Counted from the first letter of the stretch, positions 45,698 through 64,000 are shown. The stretch is 64,000 bases of DNA from Clostridia bacterium (GCA_017465145.1 JAFTWU010000005.1:83394-147393); one strand, 5' to 3'. A program made the numbers and translations. The notes: generated by a model from the letters alone, not told the origin.

Positions 45698-45702
45698 AGA
45701 TT

Positions 45703-47004: not shown

Positions 47005-47036
47005 ATTGTTTTTGTTTAGCTATAAACAAAAATATA

Positions 47037-47800: not shown

Positions 47801-47801
47801 A

Positions 47802-48242: not shown

Positions 48243-48256
48243 TTGAGGGAAAACAA

Positions 48257-50110
48257 ATGAAGAAGCAAATATGTATTTTAACTAAATCATATAAACATGG
48301 CGGGTATTGTGTTGCAGGTGTAGACATCGAAACTAAAGAGTGGATTCGTTTAGTTAATAGCGATAATCCTAGTACCGATGAAATTAGAAAAGAGCAAATG
48401 ATTCTAAATGGGAAAGTAATAGACTGTTTAGATGCTTTAGAATATGATTTTATTAAAAACATTCCTAATTCTTGTCAAACAGAGAATTGGCTGTTAAATA
48501 ATACAATATCTCCTAGATTCATTAAGAGTATATCGCTTGAAGAACTTGCTGACATTGTAGAACTTGAAAAAGAAGAGGTTTTTATTCGCAATACTTCTAA
48601 TTTGTTGAATGAAGAAGAGGTGTCGGGAGTGAAACGCTCTTTATACATATTCCATGTGCAGAATTTAAAAATAGAAGCAACATCATACGAGCGCTTTGGA
48701 GAAATTAGATTTAGATATAAATGCGCTTTTGATTACAATGGTAATAAATATACAAACATTTCACTCACAGACCCAATATATAGAGACATTTCTCAAGATG
48801 GGCTTAATTTGGAGGATGCCTTAATAATAGCAAGTTTGCCATGTGTACCATATAGCGATGGCTCTTTCTATAAATTTGTAGCTAAAATTATTCCAGTTGA
48901 TAAGAACCTTGCATCATATATGGAAAAAAAGAACGAGGAAAGAGTAGAAACAATTGATGCTCATAAAACTCAATTGTTGCCTTCACCATTTGTTAAATAT
49001 GATTTAGTTGTTCAAGCACAACAAACGCCAGGTGTCGTTAGGTTTGAGAATTATGAGCAACTTAAGAGCAGTATAAGTAATGGAGTATCATATTATTCTA
49101 ATTTTGAATACACATTAGATAATTATCAATTAGCCTTAAAACACCATAATGAATTAAAACATGTAAAAAGCGCTTTAGAGAAGACCAAGAGAGAAATTGT
49201 AAAAAGTTATAATGCTCCACTTGAAACGGTAGAAAAGAGGATAGAAGAACTAATTAATCTAATAAAAGTTCCGTTCAAGAAACTTGACACATTCATAAAA
49301 CAAAACGAAAAAGAATCTAAGAAATATGAAATTTTAAAGTTTGCAAGAACATGTGCGACATCAAATGGCTTATGCGAACATTTGGATAACATAATAAATA
49401 GTCCAGCATTTTTTGATAGCAAATGGCTTAATGCATCTTGTGTAAGGTCGACTTGGAGGTCTGCAGTATTATTAAAAATAGGAAATGCAGTTAAAGACAT
49501 CGAATATATATTGTCTTTACAAAATGATAATGTTGCTAGTATTTTGGCTCATTATTATCAAACTTTATCTATTGACATGGTGAAAGAGTTTATTGATTCA
49601 CTACAACGTGCATCTCAATTTACAACTAAACATGAAAAAGAAGATAAAGTTAACAATACTGTAGTTAGTGAAACGCAACCTGCTTCTAAAGAAAAACTAG
49701 CAATTGGTGAAAATATAGAAGAAACTCAATCAAATTCAAATAGCGATATAAACTATTCGGATTATGAAATTTTAAGCTATGTTGCAAGCTCTATTAATCC
49801 ATACACAGGAGAGGTTATAACGGGTATCGATGACTATTTGAAAAATAAAATAATTGAAATAGCCAATAAATTTGAAAATGCATTGAGGGGAGTGAGTGCG
49901 CCATCAATAGAGAAAAAAAGTGAGTTAAAAACAAAACAACAAAGAGATGAGAAATTTCCAATGGCGTGGGAAAAATGGACAGAGGAAGAAGAATCAAGAT
50001 TAGTAAAAGAATTTAATCAAGGACTTTCAGTAGATGAAATTGCTTCTATGCATAATAGAAAAGAGGGAGGCATCCGTGCGAGGTTGAAGAAATTGGGGTT
50101 GATTGAATAA
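48257..50110 (+). CDS. 617-aa mosaic protein: unassigned N-terminal domain, DUF1351-like helical middle, C-terminal HTH
   Basis: SD gaggga. N-terminus ICILTKSYKHGGYCVAGVDIETKEWIRLV. Middle VRFENYEQLKSSI...KREIVKSYNAPLETVEKRIEELINLIK. C-terminus WEKWTEEEESRLVKEFNQGLSVDEIASMHNRKEGGIRARLKKLGL. Confidence 0.7.
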   Translation: MKKQICILTKSYKHGGYCVAGVDIETKEWIRLVNSDNPSTDEIRKEQMILNGKVIDCLDALEYDFIKNIPNSCQTENWLLNNTISPRFIKSISLEELADIVELEKEEVFIRNTSNLLNEEEVSGVKRSLYIFHVQNLKIEATSYERFGEIRFRYKCAFDYNGNKYTNISLTDPIYRDISQDGLNLEDALIIASLPCVPYSDGSFYKFVAKIIPVDKNLASYMEKKNEERVETIDAHKTQLLPSPFVKYDLVVQAQQTPGVVRFENYEQLKSSISNGVSYYSNFEYTLDNYQLALKHHNELKHVKSALEKTKREIVKSYNAPLETVEKRIEELINLIKVPFKKLDTFIKQNEKESKKYEILKFARTCATSNGLCEHLDNIINSPAFFDSKWLNASCVRSTWRSAVLLKIGNAVKDIEYILSLQNDNVASILAHYYQTLSIDMVKEFIDSLQRASQFTTKHEKEDKVNNTVVSETQPASKEKLAIGENIEETQSNSNSDINYSDYEILSYVASSINPYTGEVITGIDDYLKNKIIEIANKFENALRGVSAPSIEKKSELKTKQQRDEKFPMAWEKWTEEEESRLVKEFNQGLSVDEIASMHNRKEGGIRARLKKLGLIE

Positions 50111-50385
50111 TTAATCTGGTGCTATCAATGCCTTATTCTATTAAAAAATGGAATAGTGGGCGGTTTAATACGAGATTGAGTTCTCGAGAGAGAAAAATGG
50201 AAGGTCTAATGGAGATACATTAGGCCTTTGTTATTGTCGTTTTTTACGAAAGTGAAAGATTAAACGTAACCGTACCCTTTATCGTAGGCTACCGTATAGA
50301 CAACTAAAACGACGGTTTTATCCTTATTTTACAATTAATTAAACAACGGATAGCTTATAACAATACATTAGAGAATAAAAAGAGT

Positions 50386-50421
50386 AAAAAGCGTTAGCAC
50401 TAAATCGTGCTAACGCTTTTT
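50386..50421. terminator. Bidirectional terminator
   Basis: aaaaagcgttagcac/gtgctaacgcttttt. Confidence 0.8.
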
Positions 50422-50423
50422 AG

Positions 50424-51920
50424 TTATTTGCTTAGTTCAACTAATTTTTGCCAAATTTTTACGGTTGCGAACGTGTCCAGTTCGCAGTATTTTAACAAAT
50501 TTTTTCTAACTTGTTCTTGTTCTTCTTTTGGCATATCTTTTATCTTTGGGAAAATAGACATTGCTTCGCCACCGTTGTGTACGCCTTCTAAATTATGATA
50601 ATCAAGTTTAGGGTCGTTAGGGAACATTGCCGGTAGAATACTTTTAATAGAAAAAGAGTTCCCAATCGCTTTATTATAATAATATCCTTTACGGAAAGGA
50701 ATCAACAAGTCTTTTATGTTGTTTTTAATTTTCAAAAGTTTATCTGATAAATCAGGGAAGATTTCTGCCAATTCAGCTATTCTTGATTTTTCAAAGGTTT
50801 GATTAAACACCATAACGCAAGCGTTTTCAGGGATGTCGCTTACTAATTGTTCAGCGAGAGCACGTCTTGTATCCGTTCCACTTTCGCCCAAAAATTCTCT
50901 GTGTTGTAGTTCTCCACCTTCACTTTCAATATAATGAAGTGAATATTGGAATAGCAAGTGTTGATAAGGTCTAATTTTTGGAAACTCTGGAACAACCACT
51001 TGCATGCTTTCAAAATCTAAAAAGTAAAGTGGATAAGAGAGAGTGTCTAAAAAGGACTTTATTCCCTCTTTATCAATATGTTCGTCTATTCCTTTAAGAA
51101 CAAAATCAAGTTGGCGCTTTTGAATTTCGTTAAGTTTCATAAGCTGTCTAACGTCGCCAATTTCGAAATAGCCGTCGCGATACGCCTTAATCTTTTTATC
51201 AAAACTTAACCTATAAACATCGAAAACGTTGGGCTTTGGTAGGTGGCGAGAGCAGTAGTCCCAATATCCGCAAGAATATGGTTCACGACACTTCATTGAA
51301 AGGTCAATATCGGGCTCGTTTTCAGAGTCGCAAATTTTCGTTGCTTCTATTAAGTCGAATTCAATATCGTGTTTTTTAGATTCTTCTTCAACTAGAGCAG
51401 AAACATCCTTAATAGTGAAAAGTTGTTGCAAGTCAAGTTTGCCGTCAAAAACGTATTGGTTGTTTATATGAACGATATAAGTACCCGTAACGTTAATTCC
51501 GCACTTTTCTAAAACGTATTTTTGATAGGTAATATCGGTTATGTAAACAGCGGAAACGTGGGTTGAGCTTTTTACTTCGTAAATAGCATAGCCGTCTTTT
51601 TCCTTGCGTAAAATGTCGCAAGAGCAAAATAGTCCGCCACTACTAAAAGATGCTTCGCAAATATTATCTGTGCCGTTTTTTAAGCACTCGGAAGTCTTCT
51701 CTATCATTTTAGATAAATCTAACTTGCCGTCTTTATTATAAGCTGTAACTTCGGTATAATCGCCAAACAACCCCATAGCAAGATCGCCAATTTCGTTGCC
51801 TGTTTCAAAACGTTCTTCAGCAGACGGGTCTTGCGTAAACACTTCGGGTTTATATTTGTTCAGCCACAAAATTTTAGGGCATTGACAGTATAAACAATAT
51901 TTAGATTTAGAAAAGTTCAT
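50424..51920 (-). CDS. Cas4/RecB-like nuclease fused to a DUF2779 domain
   Basis: ATG 51920 follows ggggga (the GTG at 51932 lies inside the SD). N-terminus SKSKYCLYCQCPKILWL, nuclease core CDIL...IYEVKSS, Cys cluster CREPYSCGYWDYC. C-terminus YFLDFES...PYQHLLFQYSLH...VFNQTFEKSRIAEL (DUF2779, DEDD-like). Confidence 0.75.
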   Translation of the reverse strand: MNFSKSKYCLYCQCPKILWLNKYKPEVFTQDPSAEERFETGNEIGDLAMGLFGDYTEVTAYNKDGKLDLSKMIEKTSECLKNGTDNICEASFSSGGLFCSCDILRKEKDGYAIYEVKSSTHVSAVYITDITYQKYVLEKCGINVTGTYIVHINNQYVFDGKLDLQQLFTIKDVSALVEEESKKHDIEFDLIEATKICDSENEPDIDLSMKCREPYSCGYWDYCSRHLPKPNVFDVYRLSFDKKIKAYRDGYFEIGDVRQLMKLNEIQKRQLDFVLKGIDEHIDKEGIKSFLDTLSYPLYFLDFESMQVVVPEFPKIRPYQHLLFQYSLHYIESEGGELQHREFLGESGTDTRRALAEQLVSDIPENACVMVFNQTFEKSRIAELAEIFPDLSDKLLKIKNNIKDLLIPFRKGYYYNKAIGNSFSIKSILPAMFPNDPKLDYHNLEGVHNGGEAMSIFPKIKDMPKEEQEQVRKNLLKYCELDTFATVKIWQKLVELSK

Positions 51921-52027
51921 AAATTCCCCCACGAGATTATTGAAAGCATGCAGTTATTATATACTTTAGGATTAAAAATGTCAATGGATGCCGTTGTAAG
52001 CTATAGTAGGCTATTTTAAGATAGTAG

Positions 52028-52056: not shown

Positions 52057-52093
52057 AAAATCAATTTTACAAGTGAAGGAGAAACTCAGAAGC

Positions 52094-53869
52094 ATGTATG
52101 ACACTAGTTGGTTTTTAAGGAAGTCTAAAGATACGAAATATCGTGATATTGCGGAGAACGCTAAACAATTTAGAGATAAATATGTTGGAAAATACAATTC
52201 GCAAGCATTAGAAAGACTTTTGCGAATGGATGACACTATTTCTGCATTAATACCCTATAAGGGGAATGCAAATTATTTTGATACTATAACTAGGAGACAA
52301 AAGGAATCAAATTTTTATTATGGTGCAGCAGACCAACAGTCAAATAAAGTTGGTATAGTTTTGTATTGGACAAAGAATGGTGATGAGTTTGAATACGGCT
52401 TAGAAAAGTTGGATTTAGCAGGTGCTGAGAAGCGCTGTAAGTCTATTATTAAAGGCTTAATCAAAATACAAGATTTGGCAAAGGAAATTGATGCTAAAGA
52501 TTTTGAAAGTTATAGAAAATTTTTCAGTGACATAAAGAACTATTTTACAGTGGATAATACACAGTGCAGACAAAGTTTTGTAACAAAAGACGCAGGGATA
52601 TTAAAATCGTGGGTATTTAAGTATTTAAACATTTTATTTCCAGATAAATTTTGTTCCTTTTATAGTTATGCTTGGTTTGAAAAAGTGGAAAAAGCATTAG
52701 GCTTAGTAAGTGTCTCTAGTTATTATGAAAGATTTTTTAATATCAATAATGCATTGAATCAAATAGTTACAAACACAAAGTTAGATAAGTCAGTCGTTTA
52801 TCGTATATTCTGTGAGGAATTAGAGAATGGAAGCGAAGGAACAAATGAAAGTGGGGGTTTGATAAATAATACATCCAAAACAATAGAAGAAAATACACTT
52901 GTAGCTTTGGTTAAAAACTATCCACTAAATCAAATCCTTTACGGGCCTCCTGGAACGGGTAAAACTTATAACTCAATAATTTATGCTGTTGCTATTTGCG
53001 AAAACAAGAAAATAGAAGAGATTAAAAAGGAAAAATATCAAGAGGTGCTTGAAAGGTTTAATCTTTATAAAGTCGAGGGACGTATAGAATTTGCAACTTT
53101 CCACCAGTCTTATGGCTATGAAGAGTTCATTCAAGGTATAAAACCCTATACAAACAATGGACAAATTGGATACAGAGTGGAAAGTGGGGTTTTTAAGGAG
53201 TTTTGTGATAAGGCAAAAGATAAACAAGAGAATTTTGTTTTTATAATAGACGAAATAAACCGTGGTAATGTTTCTAAAATTCTTGGCGAATTAATCACTC
53301 TTATCGAAGAAAGTAAGCGTGTTGGCAATTCTGAGGGAATGACGGTTAGATTGCCTTATAAAGATAACAATGGCAAAGACGTTTATTTCGGCGTTCCGAA
53401 CAACGTTTACATACTTGGAACAATGAACACGGCAGATAGGTCGCTTGTTCAACTTGATGCAGCACTTCGTAGAAGATTCCGTTTTATCGAAATGATGCCT
53501 GATTATAACGTACTAAACGATAAAACCAACGTTGACGGCGTTGATTTAAAAACGTTATTAACAAGCATTAACGATAGAATTACTCAGCTTATTGATAGAG
53601 AGCATCAAATAGGGCATTCTTATTTTACAAAGGTAAATAGTTTAGCTGATTTAGCTGACGCCTTTAACTATGAAATAATTCCACTACTACAAGAATATTT
53701 TTATGAAGACTATGATGGCATAAGTGAAGTTTTAAACGGACAATTTATTCAGGTCTCTGAAGATAAGAAGTCTTACGATGTAAACGTTTCTATCGATAAA
53801 GATATTTTTAAGAATATTTACAATGGTACAGATGAAGAACACAACGATTCAGTAAGCGCAGATGAATAA
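52094..53869 (+). CDS. mcrB: McrB-like AAA+ GTPase with an unassigned ~290-aa N-terminal domain
   Basis: LYGPPGTGKTY, FHQSYGYEEFIQG, FIIDEINRGNVSKILGELITLIE, GTMNTADRS, ALRRRFRF. Start ATG 52094 (alternative GTG 52073). Confidence 0.88.
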   Translation: MYDTSWFLRKSKDTKYRDIAENAKQFRDKYVGKYNSQALERLLRMDDTISALIPYKGNANYFDTITRRQKESNFYYGAADQQSNKVGIVLYWTKNGDEFEYGLEKLDLAGAEKRCKSIIKGLIKIQDLAKEIDAKDFESYRKFFSDIKNYFTVDNTQCRQSFVTKDAGILKSWVFKYLNILFPDKFCSFYSYAWFEKVEKALGLVSVSSYYERFFNINNALNQIVTNTKLDKSVVYRIFCEELENGSEGTNESGGLINNTSKTIEENTLVALVKNYPLNQILYGPPGTGKTYNSIIYAVAICENKKIEEIKKEKYQEVLERFNLYKVEGRIEFATFHQSYGYEEFIQGIKPYTNNGQIGYRVESGVFKEFCDKAKDKQENFVFIIDEINRGNVSKILGELITLIEESKRVGNSEGMTVRLPYKDNNGKDVYFGVPNNVYILGTMNTADRSLVQLDAALRRRFRFIEMMPDYNVLNDKTNVDGVDLKTLLTSINDRITQLIDREHQIGHSYFTKVNSLADLADAFNYEIIPLLQEYFYEDYDGISEVLNGQFIQVSEDKKSYDVNVSIDKDIFKNIYNGTDEEHNDSVSADE

Positions 53870-55214
53870 GAAATATCACATTTTTTACGAATATAAAAAA
53901 ATAACATCATCCGACATCGGCGAAAAAGATTTTAACGAGCTAAAATCCTTTATACTAAGGCAAGAAGAAGACGGCGTTAATGAAAGCGTTCCGTTCGACG
54001 AATTAAAAATTGAAGAGACGTCAGCTTGCATGAAATTGAGTGCTGATAAGCATGGTAGAGAAATTCTTACCATAAAAAATTACGTAGGAACAATAATGCT
54101 TTCGTCAGGTACTACCATTGAAATTTTGCCTAAAATCTATAATGAGCAAAATAGCGATAATATCAGAAATGCAAGAGCATTAATTGTAAGAATGTTGCAA
54201 GCGTGCGGGTTGATGAAGTATAAAAGTTTTCAAAGGGCAGACTTAGCTCTTGAAAAAATGACTATTTTTGAAATCTATATTCGCATTTTTCTTGATGAGG
54301 TTTATAAATTATATCAACGTGGATTAAAATTTGGATACGTACAAAAGCAAGAAAACGAAAGGTTCTTTAAGGGTAAGCTTTTGTTTTCTCAACACGTAAA
54401 AAACAACTTTGCTCATGCTGAAAGATTTTTTATCGAGTATGATGAATTCAACGTAAATAGACCGGAAAATAAACTGATAAAAACAACACTTGAGTGTTTG
54501 CGAAAAAAAACGAAGATAGAAGAAAATAAACGCGATTTGCGAAGACTTTCTTTGGTTTTTGATGACGTTGAAAGGTCTTATACCATAGATACCGATTTCC
54601 AAAAATGTACCGGCGGTCGAAACATGAAGGAATATGAAGGTATTCTTGATATGTGCAAAATATTCTTAAAGGGATGTAGCTTTTCTTCATATTCGGGCAA
54701 ACATAATACTACGGCGTTACTATTCCCAATGGAAAAGCTTTTTGAAAGTTACGTTGCAAAAACGTTGCAAAAGAAGTTAAAAGGATATGTAGTTAGTTCA
54801 CAAAAGAGAGGCAAGTATTTGTTTGATAAATTTATTAACGTTTCAAGAAATATGTTCTCTTTAAGACCTGATATTTACGTTGAAAAGAACGGTGAAGTAG
54901 TTCTTTTAGATACGAAATGGAAAATAATAAATGATAACATAAAAGAGAATTTTGGTATTTCTCAAGCAGATATGTATCAAATGCATGCCTATTATACAAG
55001 GTTTAATGATAATAAAACAGTTAAAACAGTCGTGCTCTTATATCCAGCTGTAAGCATACAAGAAGAAAATTTCGTTTGGGAATATGAAAGCAAAAAGGAA
55101 AAGATTTTTGCTAAAACTCTAAAGATTAATATCGCAGATAAAATTAAAGGCATAGAAGACGAATGTATGTCGTTTGACAGCGTGGTTGAATTAATTGCAG
55201 AACAATTACGGTAG
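53862..55214 (+). CDS. mcrC: McrC-like nuclease subunit
   Basis: 450 aa. 8-nt overlap with mcrB (ATGAATAA). C-terminal PD-(D/E)xK RPDIYVEKNGEVVLLDTKWK. Confidence 0.85.
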   Translation: MNKKYHIFYEYKKITSSDIGEKDFNELKSFILRQEEDGVNESVPFDELKIEETSACMKLSADKHGREILTIKNYVGTIMLSSGTTIEILPKIYNEQNSDNIRNARALIVRMLQACGLMKYKSFQRADLALEKMTIFEIYIRIFLDEVYKLYQRGLKFGYVQKQENERFFKGKLLFSQHVKNNFAHAERFFIEYDEFNVNRPENKLIKTTLECLRKKTKIEENKRDLRRLSLVFDDVERSYTIDTDFQKCTGGRNMKEYEGILDMCKIFLKGCSFSSYSGKHNTTALLFPMEKLFESYVAKTLQKKLKGYVVSSQKRGKYLFDKFINVSRNMFSLRPDIYVEKNGEVVLLDTKWKIINDNIKENFGISQADMYQMHAYYTRFNDNKTVKTVVLLYPAVSIQEENFVWEYESKKEKIFAKTLKINIADKIKGIEDECMSFDSVVELIAEQLR

Positions 55215-55248
55215 ATACTTGATATAAAGAACGTTTTAATTATAAATA

Positions 55249-55281
55249 AAAGTTGCAAGTTTTATACTTGCAACTTTTTTA
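55249..55281 (+). terminator. Rho-independent terminator after mcrC
   Basis: agttgcaagt/acttgcaact followed by T6. Confidence 0.8.
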
Positions 55282-55313
55282 TGTAATAACGTATTGCAAG
55301 TTTTTGCAACACT

Positions 55314-56525
55314 TTATTCAAAATAGCCTTTATATTTTAGTTCTAAGTTACTTTTTGGGAACAAATATTTATGTAGTTCTATAAAGTAATCGTCGGTCAT
55401 AGACGCGATATAGTCAACCACGATTTGATTTTTTTCCGTTTCTTCATAGGCAATATCACGTTTATAGTAAGGCTTATTTATATATTCTATATGATGTTTA
55501 TAAACGGGGGAAGATAGGTTGCCGTTAATCAAATCGCAAAGTAACTTGTTATAAATTTCTTCCATCATTTGTTTAATGATGATATTGCTTTCATTATGCG
55601 CCTTATCAAGATAGATAATTTCGTAGTTATCGCGTTTTGCCTTGTTAAGCGCATCAAAACACTCTTTATCCATTTTGATATAAGGCTTATTATAACTATT
55701 TTCAATAATGTTAACCATAAGGTTATTTACTATTTCCGAATTTATAACGCCGATACCGCTGTCGTTAAATGAGAGATTTTCTAAAAGACGGCTCTTTTCG
55801 GCATCTTGTCTATCTTTTCCTAGATAAGCAATAATATCCGAAATTCGCATGACTGCGCCTTCTAAGGTAGACGGAATCATTTTTAGAACGTTTTCAGAGT
55901 CGATATAGCAATCTTCAATTTTTTTATCAAATTTATCAAAATTTGAAAGAACGGCAGGGCGATATTCGTTTAGTTCTATTTCACCGTTATGGCAAGCAAT
56001 ACCGTCAAGCGTTTGAAGTGAAAGGTTAAGCGGGAAAATTTTATCTAACACCCTAACGGAATGGATATTGTGGTTAAAACGCCTGTCTGTGTGGTTGCGG
56101 TATAATTCATCTAAAAACTTTTCGCCCGCGTGTCCAAACGGAGTATGGCCCATATCGTGCCCTAAAGAAATTGCCTCAATTAAATCAAGGTTAAGGTTTA
56201 ACGCTTTGCCGATAGTTCTTGCCGTTCTAGAAACTAATTGAACGTGAAGTGCCCGTCTAGAGATATCGTCGTTTTTATATAGTGAAAAAACTTGCGTTTT
56301 ATCCGTGTAACGATTATAAAAGGGGCAATTCAAAATTTTATCAATATCCCTAATAAACGCCGTACGCCAAACGTTAGCGTTATCATGTTCGTTGTCTTTT
56401 CGCCTTATAACGCTATTATCGGAGCAAAAGAATCTTGGCATAGTGCCGTTAAGCTTATCATTTTCTATTAAGTTTTCTAATTTCTTTGAAAGATTTTTAT
56501 AATTTGCCATACGCTTATTATACAT
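55314..56525 (-). CDS. HD-domain dNTP triphosphohydrolase (dGTPase-like)
   Basis: 403 aa. RRALHVQLVS...SLGHDMGHTPFGHAGEKFL...HN..S. Confidence 0.8.
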   Translation of the reverse strand: MYNKRMANYKNLSKKLENLIENDKLNGTMPRFFCSDNSVIRRKDNEHDNANVWRTAFIRDIDKILNCPFYNRYTDKTQVFSLYKNDDISRRALHVQLVSRTARTIGKALNLNLDLIEAISLGHDMGHTPFGHAGEKFLDELYRNHTDRRFNHNIHSVRVLDKIFPLNLSLQTLDGIACHNGEIELNEYRPAVLSNFDKFDKKIEDCYIDSENVLKMIPSTLEGAVMRISDIIAYLGKDRQDAEKSRLLENLSFNDSGIGVINSEIVNNLMVNIIENSYNKPYIKMDKECFDALNKAKRDNYEIIYLDKAHNESNIIIKQMMEEIYNKLLCDLINGNLSSPVYKHHIEYINKPYYKRDIAYEETEKNQIVVDYIASMTDDYFIELHKYLFPKSNLELKYKGYFE

Positions 56526-56610
56526 TATTTAAATAAAAAAATAAAGAGTTTTATTTATACGCGAAGTTTTTGAAAACGAAGGCGAAGAAAACAAAGGTGA
56601 TAAAAAATAG

Positions 56611-56628
56611 CACACGATTTTTGGTGTG
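56611..56628 (+). repeat. Motif copy 1 (cacacgatttttggtgtg)
   Basis: Member of the GCAC(T)ATTTTTGGTG family. Confidence 0.6.
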
Positions 56629-56794
56629 TTAAATTAAAACTAGACGTTGCAAATAAAGGTTTGCAACTTTTTTTATTTTGCATTGAAAATTAGTCATTTT
56701 TTCTATATGCCGTGTGATATAATCCGTTTGCGTGTGAGGGGGAAAGAATTAAAAAATTTATCAAAAAAATAATAACGAATTAAAAAATGATTTT

Positions 56795-56814
56795 ACTGTG
56801 CTATTTTTGGCGCT
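56795..56814 (+). repeat. Motif copy 2 (actgtgctatttttggcgct)
   Basis: Member of the same family. Confidence 0.6.
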
Positions 56815-56900
56815 AAACATTTTATAAAATAAAAATATAAAGTAAAGATTGGCAAGTAAAAAATGTTATAAAAAATGAAAAAATATAAAATAAGTTAATT

Positions 56901-56920
56901 AGTGCACTATTTTTGGTGTA
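56901..56920 (+). repeat. Motif copy 3 (agtgcactatttttggtgta)
   Basis: 48 nt upstream of the FtsH-like gene. Similarity to copy 5 extends ~25 nt further upstream. Confidence 0.7.
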
Positions 56921-56967: not shown

Positions 56968-58275
56968 ATGGTAGAAAAAGAACAAGTATCAGTTGTAGAA
57001 ATTGAAAAAACGTTTGAACCTGTTATCGGCTATAAGTCGATAAAAAATGAAATGATTAAGATTTGCGATATAATGAGAAATAGCGAATTTTATTCTAAGC
57101 TTGGCGTAAGTGTTCCTAACGGATTATTGCTTTCGGGTGAACCAGGCCTTGGCAAAACGCTTATGGCAAACTGCTTTATAAAAGCAAGTGGTAGAACGGC
57201 TTTTGTTTGCAGAAAAGATAAACCAGATGGCGACTTTGTAAACCACATTAAAAGCACTTTTGATGAAGCCGTTAAAAATGCTCCGTCAATAGTTTTTCTT
57301 GATGATATGGATAAGTTTGCTAATGGCGACGAGTATCATAAAAATAGTGAAGAATTCGTGACCGTGCAGTCTTGCATAGATGATTCAAAAAATAAAGAAG
57401 TTTTTGTTTTAGCAACAATAAATGATGAAGACGCTATTCCTATTTCTTTGCTTAGAGCAGGCAGATTCGATAATAGAATCGAAGTAAATTCTCCTAAAGG
57501 CGAAGACGCTGAAAAAATCGTTGAACATTATATAAAGAAAAAGAACTTCGTTTCGGACGTTGACGTTAAAACTATAACGAAACTTCTAAACGGGGCAAGT
57601 TGTGCAGAACTTGAAACCGTTATAAATCAAGCGGGCGTATATGCGGGTTTTAACAGAAAAGAAAAAATTGAAATGGACGATATCGTTAGGGCTTGCTTAA
57701 GAATTATTCATAATGCACCCGAAAGAGAACAAGCGCATTCGCCAGAAGTATTAAAGGCCGTTGCTTATCACGAAGCAGGGCACGCCGTTATTGCAGAAGT
57801 ATTAGAACCTGGTTCTGTTAACTTTGTTTCCGTTCGCTCTCACGGTGGAAGTACGGGTGGGTTTACCAACTACTATCAACCAGAAGAATATTGGATTAAA
57901 GAACAGTATATGGAAAATAGAGTTACCGTTATTCTTGGCGGTAAGGCTGCAACTGAAACGGTTTTTGGCGAAACTGACGTTGGTGCAAACAAGGATTTGC
58001 ATCGTGCATTTGATATTGTTGAACGCTTCGTTGATGATTATTGCTCTAATGGGTTTGATAGATGGCTTCAAGGCAGAGAATATTCTAATGGAGCTGTTGA
58101 GCGTCGTGATATGCAAATGGCAATTGAAATGGAAAACTTTTATAAAAAAGCCAAAAAGATTTTGATTGATAACCGTGAGTTCTTAGATAAACTTGCAACT
58201 GCGCTTATAAATAAAGACGTTTTAACAAGCGTGGAAATTGAAGCAATAAAGGCTACCTGCAAAATGGTAGCCTAA
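56968..58275 (+). CDS. Soluble FtsH-like protein: AAA+ ATPase + M41 zinc metalloprotease, no TM region
   Basis: 435 aa. Walker A GEPGLGKT, Walker B VFLDDMD, SRH LLRAGRFD, zinc site HEAGHAV, M41 block GGKAATETVFGETDVGANKDL. Starts directly with the ATPase domain. Confidence 0.85.
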   Translation: MVEKEQVSVVEIEKTFEPVIGYKSIKNEMIKICDIMRNSEFYSKLGVSVPNGLLLSGEPGLGKTLMANCFIKASGRTAFVCRKDKPDGDFVNHIKSTFDEAVKNAPSIVFLDDMDKFANGDEYHKNSEEFVTVQSCIDDSKNKEVFVLATINDEDAIPISLLRAGRFDNRIEVNSPKGEDAEKIVEHYIKKKNFVSDVDVKTITKLLNGASCAELETVINQAGVYAGFNRKEKIEMDDIVRACLRIIHNAPEREQAHSPEVLKAVAYHEAGHAVIAEVLEPGSVNFVSVRSHGGSTGGFTNYYQPEEYWIKEQYMENRVTVILGGKAATETVFGETDVGANKDLHRAFDIVERFVDDYCSNGFDRWLQGREYSNGAVERRDMQMAIEMENFYKKAKKILIDNREFLDKLATALINKDVLTSVEIEAIKATCKMVA

Positions 58276-58349: not shown

Positions 58350-58568
58350 ATGGGAAAATTACCCGTTATTCAATGTGGAAAACTTTGCGCAAATTGTGTT
58401 TATTGGGGTGGGGAAAGGACTATAAATGGCTTTTTTGGTCGTGCAGAAGTTGATATTAATTGTCAAACAAAGGGTGTTTGCAGTAATTTGAAAGGATTTT
58501 ATAACCAACAAATGATTTGGCAAGCAACTTGCCCCGGATTTACTCGTCACCCTGCAATTAAAGGTTAA
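58350..58568 (+). CDS. 72-aa cysteine-rich protein
   Basis: Strong SD aaaaggag. 7 Cys, including CGKLCANC (C-x3-C-x2-C). Preferred over the antisense 58359-58577 ORF. Confidence 0.6.
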   Translation: MGKLPVIQCGKLCANCVYWGGERTINGFFGRAEVDINCQTKGVCSNLKGFYNQQMIWQATCPGFTRHPAIKG

Positions 58569-60195: not shown

Positions 60196-60215
60196 ACACC
60201 CCAAAAATAGTACAA
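60196..60215 (-). repeat. Motif copy 4, inverted (reverse complement ttgtactatttttggggtgt)
   Basis: Just after the stop of the nuclease gene. Confidence 0.55.
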
Positions 60216-60230
60216 TAAATATAATATAAT

Positions 60231-60264: not shown

Positions 60265-60433
60265 ATGATTAAAAACGTTTGTAATTTTATAAATATGACG
60301 TGCGTATGTCTTTTGTATACAGTATTATATAATTAGTAAAAATTGCACCACTATCAATTTTTAATTAGGGGTAAATTGTAAAATTCATGTTTTAGACTTA
60401 AATATTGCTATCATAAAATATATTTAAGTGAAT

Positions 60434-60453
60434 AGCGCACTATTTTTAGTGCC
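60434..60453 (+). repeat. Motif copy 5 (agcgcactatttttagtgcc; palindromic CACTA-tttt-TAGTG)
   Basis: Upstream of the LRR/WYL operon. Confidence 0.7.
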
Positions 60454-60612
60454 TTAACACAATATCATGTGGTTTAAAAAATTTTTTCAACTATTTTTCA
60501 AATCGCTTAATTTTTTAGCCGTTTTTTAAGGAGCGGTGTGTTATAATGGCCGTACAAACAAAAGCCCCACCTTTATTTTAAATTTATAAAAATCTTTTAG
60601 AGGTATAAATAT

Positions 60613-61434
60613 ATGATTATTGTTGTTGAAAAGGGTGTATTAAAAGAAGTAAACGTTGATTATGAAAAGGATATTGGCGTTAAAGAATTTGCTATTCCTG
60701 ACGGGGTAGCTATTCTCGCAGATGAAAGCCTAGCTCATTTGCCTTTAGAAGTAGAAATGCTTTATATCCCTAAGTCAGTTAAAAAAATTCACGAAGGGGC
60801 GTTTTTTGGCGAAGGCAGTAACTGGGAAAACCTTAAAAACATTATTGTAGAAGAAGGCAACAAAAACTATAAAAGCCAAACGGGTTGTTTAATTGATATC
60901 AACTCTAACACCGTAATACTTGGTACGGAAAACGCTATTATTCCTAACGGAATTGAAAAAATTGGCGTTTACGCTTTCCGTCAAAGAGCTGGTCTAACAG
61001 AGATTACAATTCCCGAAAGCGTTAAAGAAGTTGACTTGCAAGCCTTTGCATGTTGTAATAATCTTAAAAAGGTAACCGTTTTAGGCGAGAAAACAAATCT
61101 TGATTATCTTTGCTTTATTTTAGATACGGCGATAGAAGAATTTAATCTTCCCGAAAAAGCTGATTACGAATTTATAGACGGCTGTTTAGTTAAAAAGTCT
61201 TGTGAAACGCTTTTAATGCTTACTGAAAAGGGCGAAATTCCCAAAAACATCGTAACGATATGGACTTGGGCGTGTGCTAGATACTGTAAGGACGTAGTCG
61301 TTCCTGAAACGGTTGTTAGTTTTGCTGAAAACGCGTTTTTGTTGCTTGGCGGTGGAAAGCTTAAAGTTAAAAAAGATAGCCCCGCGCATAAGTATGCAGT
61401 AGAAAACGAACTGAATTACGAAATTATTAGATAA
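60613..61434 (+). CDS. Cytoplasmic BspA-type LRR protein
   Basis: 273 aa, no signal peptide. LRR_5-like repeats (IPKSVKKIHEGAFFG, IPNGIEKIGVYAFRQRAGLTEITIPESVKEVDLQAFACCNNLKKV). Confidence 0.75.
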   Translation: MIIVVEKGVLKEVNVDYEKDIGVKEFAIPDGVAILADESLAHLPLEVEMLYIPKSVKKIHEGAFFGEGSNWENLKNIIVEEGNKNYKSQTGCLIDINSNTVILGTENAIIPNGIEKIGVYAFRQRAGLTEITIPESVKEVDLQAFACCNNLKKVTVLGEKTNLDYLCFILDTAIEEFNLPEKADYEFIDGCLVKKSCETLLMLTEKGEIPKNIVTIWTWACARYCKDVVVPETVVSFAENAFLLLGGGKLKVKKDSPAHKYAVENELNYEIIR

Positions 61435-61446
61435 TGGTGGAACAAT

Positions 61447-63423
61447 ATGAGAAAGATTAACCGCGAATTTACAGAAGAACAAGGATATAAAAAGGCGCAA
61501 ATATTATACGTTTTGCACGTTTTAGAAAGAGATACGGATAGAAATAATACTTTAACGCAGGCAGAGATTGCCGATAGAGTTAAAGAACTTCGTGGTGAAG
61601 TTTACGATGACGAACCGCAAGATAAAGACAAAAGGACGGATATTCGTTCTACGGGCAGAGCACTTAGAATACTTAAGGACGTTGGATATAATATTCACGG
61701 TGTAAATATGACCGGTGAAGATGGCGTAGTTCATCAAAAAACGCGCAAAGGCATTTGGCTTGAAAAAGAAATTAGTGATGAAAAATTGCAAATACTTATA
61801 GATACGATTTTATTTGCTAACTATATTGGCAAAGCAGAAGCAAAAGAACTTATAGACAGTTTAATTTCGCTTGGGGGACCAACCATTAGAGAAAAAAAGA
61901 GTGCAAGCGCAAGGGTAGACGGGGGAAAAGTTTACCATAGAGAAGACAACGACTTTTTTACCGAGCTTAGAAAAATAAACGAGGCTATGGAATTAAAAGA
62001 GCCAAAGCGAATTGCCTTTAAGTATGCAAGATATAAGTTTGATAAGGCTAATGATAAATTCGTATTAGAAAAAGCGCACGAACACGAAGTTAGCCCCTAT
62101 CACTTTATAGTACAAAAAGGACATTATTACCTTGTGGGGTATAATCATAAAAGGGAAAACTTGTGGCACTATCGCCTTGATTACATAAAAGACGTAGAAA
62201 TTTTAAAAGAATATATCAAGCCGAGAAATGAAACGGAATTAAAGGGTAAGGACATAGGTAAATACGCCTTAGAACGTCCCTATATGTTTGCTGGAAAGGC
62301 TGAAGGTATAGAAGTTAGAATAAGTGCCGATAGAATTGGAATTTTGTTCGATACTTTTGGTGAATCGTTTAGGCGAATCAAAGATAACGGCAACACGATA
62401 GACTTTATGCTATATTGCACCGAAGAAAATGCGTTCCATTGGGCAATGCAATACGGCTCACACGTAGAAGTATTAAAGCCACAGTCTTTAAGAAACAGAA
62501 TTCGCTATCACGTTGAAAATATGATGTTTAATTATTTGCGTGACGACGGGGATAGATACACCGAAGCAATCAGACTTGCAAGAAGCAGGAAGATACTTAA
62601 CCTTGAAGGAATAGACCTTGCGGGCAAGACTAAACACCTTAATCTTAAAAACGTTCGCACGATTCTTTTATCTAACAATAAAATAGACAACGTTGATTTT
62701 ATTAAGAATATGCCTTCACTAAGGCACGTTTCTATCAAAAATAACCCTATTACCGATTTAAGCCCGTTAAAAGAGTGTAAGTTGTTAACAAAATTAGAAC
62801 TTGCAAACTTAAACGTAAAGGATATAGAGCCTATTGCGGATTTGCCGATAGAAATACTTTATTTAGGCTTTGGAAAAACTGAAGACCTTTCCGCCGTTTA
62901 TAAACTAAAGAATTTAAGGTGGCTAAGGGCAAGTGAAACGTGTGCAGATTATAATAAAACGCTTTCAACTAATTGGGAAGAATTTGAAAAACGTGGCGTA
63001 AGTACTTGGATTAGCGAAAGAGAATGCAATAACGTGAACACCAACAACGGCACATATATTAACGCATATTATCCCTATAACTTGTTAAAGAGCGTGTTTG
63101 GCAGAGATAACGTTTGGGTTGGTAGCCACGAAGAAATTTCTTTAGCGGTAGATAAGGTCGTTGAAAAATTCACCGACAGGGAAAAAGCCTATTTAGATTT
63201 AATTTATAAGCAAAGGGTTTCTAATAGAGATGCAAGAAAAACGCTTACTTTAAGTGAAAGTGAATTTAGAAGTTTGCAAAACGACATTTTAAGAAAATTT
63301 AGAAATCCACTATTTACCGATTCTCTTGAAAAATTCGTTGAGGAAGAAGACCCTCAAAAAAATTATAGTTTAGCTGATGTTATAGAAAGAAAAAAAGAAA
63401 TAGAAAAAAATTCTAAAAACTAA
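61447..63423 (+). CDS. wHTH-WYL-WCX regulator fused to internalin-type LRRs and a C-terminal sigma-r4/LuxR-like HTH
   Basis: 658 aa. N-terminal HTH (LTQAEIADRV...GRALRILKDVGYNI). WYL core VSPYHFIVQKGHYYLVGYNHKRENLWHYRLDYIKDVEIL. LRRs LSNNKIDNVDFIKNMPSLRHVSIKNNPITDLSPLKECKLLTKLELANLNVKDIEPI. C-terminus FTDREKAYLDLIYKQRVSNRDARKTLTLSESEFRSLQNDILRKFRN. Confidence 0.75.
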   Translation: MRKINREFTEEQGYKKAQILYVLHVLERDTDRNNTLTQAEIADRVKELRGEVYDDEPQDKDKRTDIRSTGRALRILKDVGYNIHGVNMTGEDGVVHQKTRKGIWLEKEISDEKLQILIDTILFANYIGKAEAKELIDSLISLGGPTIREKKSASARVDGGKVYHREDNDFFTELRKINEAMELKEPKRIAFKYARYKFDKANDKFVLEKAHEHEVSPYHFIVQKGHYYLVGYNHKRENLWHYRLDYIKDVEILKEYIKPRNETELKGKDIGKYALERPYMFAGKAEGIEVRISADRIGILFDTFGESFRRIKDNGNTIDFMLYCTEENAFHWAMQYGSHVEVLKPQSLRNRIRYHVENMMFNYLRDDGDRYTEAIRLARSRKILNLEGIDLAGKTKHLNLKNVRTILLSNNKIDNVDFIKNMPSLRHVSIKNNPITDLSPLKECKLLTKLELANLNVKDIEPIADLPIEILYLGFGKTEDLSAVYKLKNLRWLRASETCADYNKTLSTNWEEFEKRGVSTWISERECNNVNTNNGTYINAYYPYNLLKSVFGRDNVWVGSHEEISLAVDKVVEKFTDREKAYLDLIYKQRVSNRDARKTLTLSESEFRSLQNDILRKFRNPLFTDSLEKFVEEEDPQKNYSLADVIERKKEIEKNSKN

Positions 63424-63441
63424 ACAAAAAACCAAAAAAAG

Positions 63442-63490
63442 TACACTCCTTTTTATAAAATGATAGTAGAAAAGGAGTGTATTTTTATTT
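63442..63490 (+). terminator. Hairpin + T-run abutting the next ATG (terminator and/or SD-sequestering)
   Basis: tacactcctttt/aaaaggagtgta (12 bp) followed by tttttattt. The 3' arm contains aaggag. Confidence 0.6.
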
Positions 63491-64000
63491 ATGGATGAAA
63501 GAATTTTAGAACAATTGGAAAACGTGCCATATCAAAAGAAGGAAGGAGAAACGGCTTTAGAAATTATCAAACGATTGCTAGAAGAGAAGGATGAATTATA
63601 CGGTTGGAATTATTCAAAAGAAGAGTGGGAGAGAATAAACTATGAACTTGATAGAATTAAAGAGTTAGGTTTAGAAAAGTTAATACTTTTTTGTTACACC
63701 TTATCTAAAATTGCAGATGGATGCGTAAGGTATGCTTTTACAGGAACAGAGGGCTGTTCGTTTGTTTTGAGTGAGCTAATATCAGCTACTTTTAGCAAGG
63801 CTAAGTTTAACCTGCCTTTTGAAAGGTTTTTTAATGAATATAGAAAGAGTGCGCCTACGTTGAGCATATACGTTGAGCAAGGTGGTAAAGGCAAAATATT
63901 AAAAAGTCTTTATGAAACATACGGAAAAAGCCTGTTTATAAAAGGAAAAGATAGCGACGACTTTTATTTTGCGTCTTCTAAGCCATTTGATACTGAAATT
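63491..64000 (+). CDS. DnaE (Pol III alpha)-like protein lacking the PHP domain and the catalytic Asp residues (partial, runs off the window)
   Basis: Open for 170 codons to the window end. WERINYELDRIKELGLEKLILF...GTEGCSFV...NLPFERFFNEYRKSAPTLSIYVEQG...LYETYG aligns with DnaE RLxYELxVI..GFxxYFLIV...GRGSAAGS...LLFERFLNPERxSMPDxDxDF...YG. Confidence 0.6.
   Translation, partial: MDERILEQLENVPYQKKEGETALEIIKRLLEEKDELYGWNYSKEEWERINYELDRIKELGLEKLILFCYTLSKIADGCVRYAFTGTEGCSFVLSELISATFSKAKFNLPFERFFNEYRKSAPTLSIYVEQGGKGKILKSLYETYGKSLFIKGKDSDDFYFASSKPFDTEI

What the first reader, a model, noticed from the sequence alone, without database searches (positions are those of the whole stretch)
60613..63423. 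Signal-less LRR protein plus a WYL regulator fused to LRRs and a second HTH
Seen: a 273-aa BspA-type LRR protein without a signal peptide. Twelve nt later comes a 658-aa protein combining wHTH + WYL (LWHYRLDYIKDV) + a WCX-like region. That protein then has about 5 internalin-type LRRs and a C-terminal sigma-r4/LuxR-like HTH. Established: WYL-domain regulators control several defence systems (for example the BrxR and CapW types and CRISPR-associated WYL proteins). LRRs are classic ligand and protein sensors in innate-immune receptors. Inference: this would be an LRR-based sensor coupled to transcriptional output. I do not recall this architecture among described bacterial defence regulators.
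Basis: partly seen in the sequence, partly recalled or inferred. Interest (0 to 1): 0.65.

Follow-up and report, generated by a model that had tools for sequence, protein, structure and literature searches.

The report
WYL regulator fused to LRR and sigma-4
A gut Clostridia (Christensenellaceae) defence island encodes a real, conserved regulator that joins a nucleic-acid-sensing WYL transcription factor to a leucine-rich-repeat arm and a copy of sigma factor region 4, always followed by a catalytically dead DNA polymerase III fragment, an arrangement that I could not find described anywhere.

Summary
ORF 60613-61434 is a signal-less BspA-type LRR_5 protein. Twelve nt later, ORF 61447-63423 encodes wHTH-WYL-WCX, then 5-6 internalin-type LRRs, then sigma-70 region 4. 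The fusion is not an artefact: 19 full-length homologues and further remote clusters keep the architecture on independent contigs, mostly Christensenellaceae MAGs.

New findings:
- The gene directly downstream is conserved in 9 of 9 loci. In 8 it is a 330-365 aa Pol III alpha palm/fingers core without the catalytic DxD. In one it is an RNase E/G-like domain. All carry the same ~13-residue N-terminal tag.
- A 16-bp palindrome (GyACyA-TTTT-yGGTrC) occurs five times in the window, only in island intergenic DNA. It sits over the -35 position of a soluble FtsH-like protease promoter in four species.
- The surroundings are a defence island (AbiL-like, Shosta, PDC-M45, McrBC, dGTPase).

Best reading: a PafBC/DriD-like WYL transcription factor is the island's resident regulator. 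It binds the palindromes and uses LRR plus sigma-4 for partner and RNA polymerase contacts. Function is inferred, not shown. Verdict: a new variant of a known kind, of moderate to high interest.

The parts
60613..61434 (+). 273-aa cytoplasmic BspA-type LRR_5 protein, first gene of the operon
   Evidence: Pfam LRR_5 E 9e-19. No signal peptide in the sequence. Orthologues at 75-82% identity lie directly upstream of the WYL gene in L003, L005 and L010, and remoter LRR_5 paralogues lie nearby in L007, L009, L041 and L043.
61447..63423 (+). 658-aa wHTH-WYL-WCX-LRR-sigma4 protein (whole gene)
61486..61764 (+). N-terminal winged helix-turn-helix (residues ~14-106)
   Evidence: Foldseek alignments to PafBC, DriD, CapW and BrxR span the N-terminus. 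PADLOC WYL model PDLC01457 covers residues 33-348. Pfam HTH_11 is found in the remote member P0055.
62005..62202 (+). WYL domain (residues 187-252; invariant Y228, L229, H241, R243, D245)
   Evidence: Pfam PF13280 E 3e-10. Invariant columns in alignment A1.
62311..62523 (+). WCX domain (residues 289-359)
   Evidence: Pfam PF25583 E 8e-7.
62578..63012 (+). Internalin-type LRR module, 5-6 repeats plus cap (residues ~378-522)
   Evidence: Pfam LRR_4. PDB sequence hits to Roco LRR and InlA/InlB. AF2 pLDDT ~90 with 22-residue strand spacing. Foldseek InlB match, rmsd 2-3 A.
63127..63336 (+). Sigma-70 region 4 domain (residues ~561-630)
   Evidence: NCBIfam FliA/WhiG region, E 3e-3. Family profile against PDB hits SigA 8h3v E 1e-7, FliA 1rp3 E 3e-7 and RpoD E 2e-5. 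Pfam Sigma70_r4 in 7 of 15 members.
60433..60453 (+). Palindromic motif copy (TAGCGCACTATTTTTAGTGCC) about 100 nt upstream of the operon promoter
   Evidence: Conserved position in L003, L005 and L007.
60539..60547 (+). Extended -10 promoter element TGTTATAAT of the LRR_5/WYL operon, with no recognisable -35
   Evidence: Read from the sequence. Conserved as TGATATAAT or TGTTATAAT in 6 loci in alignment A4.
60197..60217 (-). Palindromic motif copy on the minus strand, just after the upstream gene
   Evidence: Equivalent minus-strand copies are in L003, L005 and L007.
56900..56920 (+). Palindromic motif copy over the -35 position of the FtsH-like gene promoter (65 nt before the ATG)
   Evidence: Same 65-66 nt spacing in L001, L003, L005 and L007, with a -10-like hexamer 9-10 nt after the 21-mer.
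56794..56814 (+). Palindromic motif copy (degenerate)
   Evidence: 22.5 bits. An equivalent copy is in L011 at 139.
56608..56628 (+). Palindromic motif copy
56968..58275 (+). Soluble FtsH-like AAA+/M41 protease (435 aa, no transmembrane part), likely regulon member
   Evidence: Pfam AAA + Peptidase_M41. NCBIfam FtsH_fam E 1e-66, below the family cut-off. PADLOC IetA E 2e-22. Conserved upstream of the WYL gene in L001, L003, L005, L007, L009 and L011.
63437..63486 (+). Conserved hairpin plus U-run between the WYL stop and the next start codon; its 3' arm holds the GGAG ribosome-binding site
   Evidence: Folding energy -21.2 kcal/mol, z -5.1. Conserved in 7 of 8 loci, with compensatory stem changes in L041.
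63491..64000 (+). Start of the conserved partner gene, a catalytically dead Pol III alpha palm/fingers core (343 aa in L001; cut by the window end)
   Evidence: Pfam DNA_pol3_alpha + finger. DxD is replaced in 23 of 23 members. AF2 pLDDT 81 with Foldseek matches to Pol III alpha at TM 0.62-0.68. The N-terminal tag MDERILEQLENVP is conserved.

Best explanation
The 658-aa protein is a transcription factor of the wHTH-WYL-WCX class, the same class as PafBC, DriD, CapW and BrxR. It has acquired a C-terminal arm of 5-6 internalin-type LRRs ending in a copy of sigma-70 region 4. I propose it is the resident regulator of a conserved island module in Christensenellaceae.

Proposed mechanism:
1. As a dimer it binds, through its winged helices, the 16-bp palindromes GyACyA-TTTT-yGGTrC. 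One palindrome replaces the -35 hexamer of the promoter of a soluble FtsH-like AAA+ protease operon. Others lie upstream of its own LRR_5/WYL operon and between cargo genes.
2. The WYL/WCX core senses a nucleic-acid cue, ssDNA by analogy.
3. The sigma-4 domain supplies or competes for the contact that the housekeeping sigma's region 4 normally makes (beta-flap and/or promoter DNA). This would be a built-in version of the 'sigma adaptation' used by PafBC at promoters that lack a -35.
4. The LRR arm holds a protein partner. The best candidate is the product of the gene directly downstream, which carries a conserved 13-residue N-terminal tag on either a dead Pol III alpha core or an RNase E/G-like domain. 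The recurrent LRR_5 protein is a second candidate.

Shown: the domain architecture, family conservation, synteny, loss of the polymerase catalytic residues, and motif distribution and geometry.
Inferred: DNA binding to the motif, the ligand, the partner, the direction of regulation (activation favoured over repression), and the defence role.
For: - Domains.
- The best structural matches of the N-terminal half are the ssDNA-activated activators PafBC (9fnd, E 1.5e-11) and DriD (8tp8), ahead of the repressors CapW and BrxR (E ~1e-6).
- Family conservation: 19 full-length members, and remote clusters with the same order of domains.
- Downstream partner: 9 of 9 loci with downstream sequence have the tagged gene behind the same hairpin.
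- Motif distribution: 5 sites of at least 22.5 bits, all in island intergenic DNA, with the next best site in 64 kb at 14.8 bits. Three strict matches against 0.08 expected.
- Motif geometry: fixed at 65-66 nt before the FtsH-like ATG, with a -10-like hexamer 9-10 nt after the 21-mer, in four species. This places the palindrome centre near -31.
- Independent association: a similar site lies next to a stand-alone WYL paralogue with a near-identical recognition helix (L016) and upstream of an AAA gene in the remote locus L041.
- PafBC precedent for hybrid promoters that lack a -35 and for a contact with SigA domain 4: PMC8635444.
- Defence-island setting.
- The same LRR module, including its post-LRR 'YYP(Y/F)' cap, is fused to a PolC-like protein that also lacks DxD (P0033). 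This links the LRR type to dead C-family polymerases.
Against: - No experiment or expression data exist, so binding of this protein to the palindrome is only an association.
- In the LRR_5/WYL operon the palindrome is ~100 nt upstream of the extended -10 promoter, not at -35.
- No strong site was found in L009, L010 or L043.
- The weight matrix was built from the same sites it scores.
- In the recognition helix of the sigma-4 domain, the residues that read the -35 in RpoD are replaced (SESEFRS against TRERIRQ). DNA reading by this domain is therefore uncertain.
- Interdomain geometry in the AF2 model is unreliable (pTM 0.34).
- A palindrome centred near -31 fits a repressor as well as an activator.
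- The LRR-partner pairing is untested, and P0033 is a single contig.
Confidence: 0.55

Rival explanations
1. Integrated-decoy (guard) system. The sigma-4 domain, the dead Pol III alpha core, the RNase E/G-like domain and the soluble FtsH-like protein are baits. They mimic host machines that phage inhibitors attack. Capture of a phage protein, for instance an AsiA-like anti-sigma on the sigma-4 domain held on the LRR scaffold, switches the WYL regulator and releases the island's effectors. This would parallel plant NLRs with integrated decoy domains.
For: - The sigma-4 domain keeps the primary-sigma fold and C-terminal tail but not the -35-reading residues.
- The polymerase core has lost DxD in 23 of 23 members yet is well conserved.
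- The partner can be swapped for an RNase E/G-like domain while the N-terminal tag is kept.
- The FtsH-like protein has no membrane part.
- A Spo0A_C-only protein lies next to the gene in L043.
- The setting is a defence island.
- Phage AsiA is known to bind sigma-70 region 4 (PMC6755090, listed).
Against: - This is pattern-based only. No phage ligand is known.
- Truncated housekeeping paralogues are also common in mobile elements for ordinary reasons.
- No effector with a clear toxic activity is tied to the module.
- The WYL domain already provides a sensor.
Confidence: 0.13
2. Not defence. The protein is a PafBC/DriD-like regulator of a DNA-damage or replication-stress response, or of the maintenance genes of a decayed mobile element. 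The Pol III-derived protein, the RNase_T/DnaQ-like exonuclease and the FtsK-like ATPase would be the regulated DNA-metabolism genes, and the LRR and sigma-4 would be accessory.
For: - The closest structures are DNA-damage activators.
- Neighbours derive from replication and repair proteins: a Pol III alpha core, an RNase_T exonuclease and FtsK-like ATPases.
- Flanks differ between genomes, as for a mobile or variable island.
- A stand-alone paralogue lies in an element with FtsK-like and large helicase-like genes.
Against: - The polymerase core cannot polymerise (no DxD, no PHP, no thumb or clamp-binding parts).
- No integrase or att repeats were found.
- The family is absent from IMG/VR and from the phage and plasmid collections.
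- The variable cargo between the conserved genes is typical defence material: reverse transcriptase, PD-(D/E)XK, GIY-YIG, YAcAr, McrBC.
Confidence: 0.2
3. The palindromes are bound by a different factor, or act as RNA hairpins. On this reading the WYL-LRR-sigma4 protein regulates only its own operon or nothing nearby.
For: - G-T 'wobble' positions in several copies would pair in RNA.
- Several small conserved ORFs of unknown function lie in the island.
Against: - The stems are only 5-6 bp, AT-rich and followed by no U-run.
- Copies occur on both strands, and upstream of the mapped -10 elements.
- No Rfam family matches in the island.
- No other DNA-binding domain is conserved in the module.
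- A similar site accompanies the stand-alone WYL paralogue in L016.
Confidence: 0.1

Closest known systems
PafBC (mycobacteria) and DriD (Caulobacter): ssDNA-activated wHTH-WYL-WCX transcription activators
   Same: - Same N-terminal three-domain core. These are the best Foldseek matches (E ~1e-11 over ~360 columns).
- The conserved WYL signature is present.
- Target promoters have a good -10 but no -35, with the regulator's site in the -35/-26 region (PMC8635444).
   Different: - PafBC and DriD end after WCX and contact the host sigma's domain 4 in trans.
- This protein carries its own sigma region 4 on an LRR arm.
- Sequence identity is only 12-17%.
- The host is a Firmicute, and the setting is a defence island rather than a DNA-repair regulon.
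BrxR and CapW: WYL repressors of BREX and CBASS defence operons
   Same: - Same wHTH-WYL-WCX fold (Foldseek E ~1e-6).
- Located in defence-gene neighbourhoods.
- Palindromic operators are expected.
   Different: - No BREX or CBASS genes are adjacent.
- The extra LRR and sigma-4 domains are absent from BrxR and CapW.
- The direction of regulation here is unknown.
Sigma-70 family region 4 (SigA/RpoD, FliA)
   Same: The C-terminal ~70 residues match region 4.1-4.2, including the primary-sigma tail 'HPS....L..F'.
   Different: - Regions 1-3 are missing, so it is not a sigma factor.
- The -35-reading residues of the recognition helix are replaced.
- It lacks the 4-residue insert of group 1 sigmas.
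Internalin / Roco-type LRR domains
   Same: 22-residue LRR_4 repeats with an Asn ladder. PDB hits to InlA, InlB and Roco LRR.
   Different: - Cytoplasmic, with no signal peptide or wall anchor.
- Only 5-6 repeats.
- Embedded between a transcription-factor core and a sigma-4 domain.
- No STAND or NTPase domain, so it is not NLR-like.
DNA polymerase III alpha (DnaE/PolC), for the partner gene
   Same: Palm and fingers fold (TM 0.62-0.68 to 4iqj, 7pu7 and 5fkv). The fingers motifs YQEQ and AD..RR are retained.
   Different: - 330-365 aa instead of >900.
- No PHP, thumb, clamp-binding or OB parts.
- The catalytic DxD is replaced in all 23 members examined.
- It has a conserved N-terminal tag that a full polymerase lacks.

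Membership tests
wHTH-WYL-WCX transcription factors (PafBC/DriD/CapW/BrxR class) | N-terminal winged HTH | tested here: met
   Foldseek alignments to PafBC, DriD, CapW and BrxR include the N-terminus. PADLOC WYL model covers residues 33-348. No direct Pfam HTH hit in the window protein itself; HTH_11 is found in the remote member P0055.
wHTH-WYL-WCX transcription factors (PafBC/DriD/CapW/BrxR class) | WYL domain with conserved ligand-pocket residues | tested here: met
   Pfam PF13280, 40.4 bits against a cut-off of 21.8. Y228, L229, H241, R243 and D245 are invariant in 19 members.
wHTH-WYL-WCX transcription factors (PafBC/DriD/CapW/BrxR class) | WCX C-terminal extension domain | tested here: met
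   Pfam PF25583, 29.8 bits against a cut-off of 23.9.
wHTH-WYL-WCX transcription factors (PafBC/DriD/CapW/BrxR class) | Binds a specific (usually palindromic) site in promoters of nearby genes | tested here: inconclusive
   Candidate 16-bp palindromes are enriched in island promoters and conserved in position. Binding is not testable in silico.
wHTH-WYL-WCX transcription factors (PafBC/DriD/CapW/BrxR class) | WYL domain binds ssDNA or another nucleic-acid ligand that switches activity | not testable with these tools
   Only the conservation of pocket residues can be stated.
BrxR / CapW defence-operon repressors | Encoded directly beside, and regulating, a BREX or CBASS operon | tested here: not met
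   PADLOC finds no BREX or CBASS components in the window island or in related loci (loci).
Sigma-70 family sigma factors | Region 2 (core binding, -10 recognition) together with region 4 | tested here: not met
   Only region 4 is detected. The remainder of the protein is WYL-TF and LRR.
NLR/STAND-type LRR immune receptors | Central STAND NTPase (NACHT/NB-ARC) linked to the LRR sensor | tested here: not met
   No NTPase domain in Pfam, PADLOC or NCBIfam scans.
Internalins (class 1) | Signal peptide, N-cap, LRR and surface anchoring | tested here: not met
   The LRR type matches, but NCBIfam internalin scores of 32-47 bits are far below cut-offs of at least 1050. There is no signal peptide and the LRR is internal to a cytoplasmic protein.
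BspA-type LRR_5 proteins (the 273-aa ORF) | LRR_5 repeats | tested here: met
   Pfam PF13306, 68 bits against a cut-off of 27.7.
DNA polymerase III alpha (the partner gene) | Catalytic Asp pair (DxD) in the palm, plus PHP domain | tested here: not met
   DxD is replaced in 23 of 23 members and the PHP domain is absent. The fold is retained.

The most novel reading that the evidence does not exclude
The module is a bacterial 'integrated decoy' immune sensor. On this reading a WYL transcription factor carries, on an LRR scaffold, a bait copy of sigma region 4. It works together with tagged bait copies of other phage-targeted host machines: a dead Pol III alpha core, an RNase E/G-like domain and a soluble FtsH-like protein. 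Attack by phage inhibitors on these baits is then converted directly into transcription of defence genes.
Probability: 0.12. Interest if true: 0.9.

Novelty: new variant of a known kind. Interest (0 to 1): 0.62.

Why it matters
WYL regulators are emerging as the common switch of bacterial DNA-damage and anti-phage responses. The known ones are three-domain proteins that reach RNA polymerase through the host sigma factor.

A conserved version that carries its own sigma region 4 and a protein-binding LRR arm would be a new way of wiring a sensor to RNA polymerase. So would its locking to a catalytically dead polymerase core that bears a portable N-terminal tag.

It also gives a concrete, testable case for two open questions. 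The first is what cytoplasmic LRR proteins, very common in gut Firmicutes, are for. The second is whether bacteria use inactive copies of essential enzymes as sensors or decoys.

The family comes from Christensenellaceae, a health-associated and poorly studied gut lineage in which almost nothing is known about gene regulation or phage defence.

Tried and rejected
- Frameshift or assembly artefact: rejected. The ORF is continuous in 19 or more homologues on independent assemblies.
- LuxR-type HTH at the C-terminus: replaced by sigma-70 region 4. A single-sequence PDB search was inconclusive; the family profile was decisive.
- Prophage, satellite or ICE origin: no integrase, no att-like repeats at the tRNA-proximal edge, no member in IMG/VR, and only N-terminal-half matches in phage and plasmid records.
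- Known RNA element in the leaders: none at Rfam gathering thresholds in the island.
- Palindrome as RNA hairpin: weak short stems, present on both strands, so judged less likely.
- BrxR/CapW membership: no BREX or CBASS nearby.
- Searching with the window's truncated DnaE-like fragment returned only 5 fragments.
This was solved by a full-length search and alignment A8.
- An attempt to recover the full RNase E/G-like partner from metagenome contigs found only an ordinary RNase G.
- I looked for co-variation between recognition-helix residues and palindrome arms across loci by eye and saw no clear pattern.
- A -35-like hexamer after each palindrome (TTGAAT/TTAACA) is not conserved in the other species.
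Full report
**Observation**

The window holds the two ORFs exactly as described: 60613-61434 (273 aa) and 61447-63423 (658 aa). They are separated by 12 nt containing a GGTGGA ribosome-binding site.

The first ORF is a BspA-type LRR_5 protein (Pfam E 9e-19). Its N-terminus has no signal-peptide features.

The second ORF has Pfam WYL, WCX and LRR_4 above their gathering scores. PADLOC WYL models span residues 33-359. There is a weak sigma-70 region 4 signal at 561-621.

An AlphaFold2 model built on 19 family members has a mean pLDDT of 72, with ~90 in the LRR. It was compared with the PDB:
- Residues ~1-365 align over ~360 columns with PafBC (9fnd, E 1.5e-11), DriD (8tp8), CapW and BrxR. This confirms the wHTH-WYL-WCX core.
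- The LRR part matches InlA/InlB at 2-3 A rmsd.

A profile of the C-terminal ~89 residues of the family hits region 4 of SigA (E 1e-7), FliA and RpoD. The match includes the primary-sigma tail HPS....L..F. Pfam Sigma70_r4 or r4_2 is found in 7 of 15 members.

**The fusion is real and conserved**

A search of 5.8 billion proteins gave 19 full-length homologues at 33-100% identity with the same Pfam content.

An exhaustive search of 1.84 billion representatives with only the post-LRR/sigma-4 part found 23 clusters. All of the 628-748 aa members I scanned (P0040, P0046, P0047, P0051, P0054, P0055, P0056) again carry WYL and LRR_4. WCX passed the scan threshold in six of the seven (not P0051), and Sigma70_r4 only in P0046 and P0055. 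The C-terminal sigma-4 module in the others rests on the match that found them.

Named genomes are Christensenellaceae MAGs. Phage and plasmid records, and IMG/VR, contain only ordinary ~330-aa WYL proteins that match the N-terminal half.

**Neighbourhood**

Window positions 42-64 kb, continued in L001 to the equivalent of ~66 kb, form a low-GC island: about 32% against about 40%. It is full of defence genes:
- an AbiL-like ATPase
- Shosta (ShosT/ShosA)
- PDC-M45 A/B/C
- a Cas4-like DUF2779 protein
- McrBC
- a dGTPase

Nine independent loci carrying family members were fetched. A backbone recurs, with variable defence-like cargo inserted between the conserved genes (reverse transcriptase, PD-(D/E)XK, GIY-YIG, YAcAr, SprT-like, Metallophos):
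- a divergent HD/dGTPase-like gene
- a soluble FtsH-like AAA+/M41 protease without a membrane part (6 loci)
- small ORFs
- an LRR_5 protein, directly upstream in 4 loci and within a few kb in 4 more
- the WYL-LRR-sigma4 gene
- a conserved gene directly downstream
- often an RNase_T/DnaQ-like exonuclease

Flanking genes differ between genomes. No integrase or att repeats were found.

**The obligate partner**

In 8 of 9 loci with downstream sequence, the next gene encodes a 330-365 aa protein with Pfam DNA_pol3_alpha and finger hits. It belongs to a coherent family of 41 proteins whose contigs coincide with those of the WYL family.

- Its AF2 model (pLDDT 81, pTM 0.72) matches the Pol III alpha palm/fingers of Taq, M. 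tuberculosis and E. coli at TM 0.62-0.68.
- In the viral structure library it matches only full-length phage DnaE proteins.
- The catalytic DxD (PDIDIDF in M. tuberculosis DnaE1) aligns to PTLSIYV here. It is replaced in 23 of 23 members.
- The PHP, thumb and clamp-binding parts are missing. The fingers motifs YQEQ and AD..RR are kept.
- It is therefore a non-catalytic polymerase core.
- Its first 13 residues, MDERILEQLENVP, are nearly invariant even at 37% overall identity.

In the ninth locus (L005/L006) the downstream gene begins with the same tag (MDEKVLEQLEIIP) behind the same hairpin. It then continues as an RNase_E_G domain (Pfam E 9e-20) before the contig ends. The partner is thus swappable while the tag is retained.

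A conserved hairpin lies between the WYL stop codon and this start codon (window ~63437-63486). Its folding energy is -21 kcal/mol with z -5.1. It shows compensatory stem changes in the remote locus L041, and its 3' arm holds the GGAG ribosome-binding site.

A further hint links this LRR type with dead C-family polymerases. P0033 (1122 aa) fuses the same LRR module, including the post-LRR YYP(Y/F) cap, to a PolC-like body that also lacks DxD. This rests on one short contig.

**Candidate operator**

A motif TAG(Y)RCAC.ATTTTTRGTG was found. Its core is the palindrome GyACyA-TTTT-yGGTrC.

- It occurs at 56608, 56900 and 60433 in the window: 3 matches against 0.08 expected.
- A weight matrix finds five sites of at least 22.5 bits, adding 56794 and 60217 on the minus strand. 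All are in island intergenic DNA, and the next best site in 64 kb scores 14.8. The matrix was built from these and the orthologous sites, so the scores are partly circular.
- The positional conservation is independent evidence. In L001, L003, L005 and L007 a copy lies 65-66 nt before the FtsH-like ATG, with a -10-like hexamer 9-10 nt after the 21-mer. This places the palindrome centre near -31, where the -35 hexamer should be.
- Arm changes are symmetric in some copies, for example CAC/GTG changing to CCC/GGG in L007.
- The LRR_5/WYL operon has a conserved extended -10 (TGTTATAAT, 60539-60547) without a -35. Its palindrome is ~100 nt further upstream.
- Similar sites lie next to a stand-alone WYL paralogue with an almost identical recognition helix (L016) and upstream of an AAA gene in the remote locus L041.
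- No strong site was found in L009, L010 or L043.
- No Rfam family matches in the island.

**Interpretation**

The best-supported reading is that this protein is a PafBC/DriD-type WYL transcription factor acting as the island's resident regulator. It binds the palindromes as a dimer.

PafBC activates hybrid promoters that have a -10 but no -35. It does so by inserting between the DNA and SigA domain 4, a mechanism called 'sigma adaptation' (PMC8635444). The FtsH-like promoter here has that geometry, and this protein carries its own region 4.

I therefore favour activation in which the fused sigma-4 supplies or competes for the beta-flap/-35 contact. A repressor mode is not excluded.

WYL domains are the established nucleic-acid sensors in this class (PMC10693628). 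The LRR is therefore more likely a partner-binding arm than the primary sensor. The tagged downstream protein is the prime candidate ligand.

All functional steps are inferred.

**Rivals**

- An integrated-decoy system, in which sigma-4, the dead polymerase, the RNase E/G-like domain and the soluble FtsH-like protein are baits for phage inhibitors. This is attractive but purely pattern-based.
- A DNA-damage or mobile-element maintenance regulon rather than defence.
- The palindromes belong to another factor or act as RNA.

**Comparison and novelty**

The protein meets the structural criteria of the wHTH-WYL-WCX class. It fails those of BrxR/CapW (no BREX or CBASS), of sigma factors (no region 2), of NLR-like receptors (no NTPase) and of internalins (not secreted).

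The 2014 survey of WYL fusions lists nucleases, helicases, BRCT and TerB, but no LRR or sigma domains (PMC4012209). Full-text searches for WYL with LRR or sigma found nothing relevant.

I rate it a new variant of a known kind: a real, conserved and apparently undescribed architecture with an unusual obligate partner. It is restricted, so far, to an uncultured gut Clostridia lineage.

Noticed in passing
L005:9991-10185 and L006:7760-8209: The gene downstream of the WYL-LRR-sigma4 orthologue keeps the 13-residue N-terminal tag of the dead-DnaE-like proteins but encodes an RNase_E_G family domain. Both contigs end inside the gene.
   Followed up: partly
window 63437-63486: A strong conserved hairpin plus U-run sits between the WYL stop and the next ATG, sequestering the GGAG ribosome-binding site. 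It may be a terminator/attenuator or a translational control element. The stem shows compensatory changes in L041.
   Followed up: partly
window 42447-51932: The upstream part of the same low-GC island holds an AbiL-like ATPase with a 254-aa partner, Shosta (ShosT 45095-45697, ShosA 45703-46530), a HAD/NIF phosphatase, PDC-M45 B/C/A (47189-50110, DUF488 x2 plus DuOB-DUF1351) and a Cas4-like DUF2779 protein on the minus strand.
   Followed up: partly
window 52073-56525: McrB (598 aa) and McrC (450 aa) are inserted between the DUF2779 gene and a minus-strand dGTPase-like HD protein. In L005 the DUF2779 and HD genes are adjacent, so McrBC looks like inserted cargo.
   Followed up: no
window 56968-58275: A soluble FtsH-like protein (AAA+ plus M41 peptidase, no transmembrane segment) resembles IetA/IteA anti-phage ATPases below the family cut-offs. 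It is conserved in six related loci and carries the palindrome over its -35 position.
   Followed up: partly
P0052 (398 aa) and P0058 (543 aa): These proteins are built from two or three tandem sigma-70 region 4 domains fused to an RNA polymerase alpha C-terminal domain. This is an odd architecture made only of RNA polymerase DNA-binding modules. Their context was not examined.
   Followed up: no
L089:1096-4464 (P0033): A 1122-aa protein has an N-terminal LRR module homologous to the one studied here, fused to a PolC-like PHP/palm/fingers body that also lacks the catalytic DxD. A Zn_peptidase_2 gene follows it.
   Followed up: partly
L016:7704-8744 and 8766-8786: A stand-alone 346-aa WYL paralogue (37% identity, same recognition helix as some family members) has a similar palindrome just downstream. 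It is followed by an FtsK-like ATPase and lies near a 1155-aa helicase-like gene, so it may be in a conjugative element.
   Followed up: no
L043:3565-3930: A 121-aa protein consisting only of the Spo0A C-terminal DNA-binding domain lies directly upstream of a remote WYL-LRR-sigma4 gene. Two LRR_5 genes lie further upstream.
   Followed up: no
window 35945-36078 and 40626-40826: A THF riboswitch (Rfam 65.9 bits), and tRNA-Met plus tRNA-Glu, lie just before the low-GC island begins. No repeat of the tRNA 3' end was found at the far side of the island.
   Followed up: partly
window 58350-58568: A conserved 72-aa Cys-rich ORF (also 72 aa in L003 and L007) follows the FtsH-like gene. It has no family match in Pfam, NCBIfam, PADLOC or PHROGs.
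   Followed up: no
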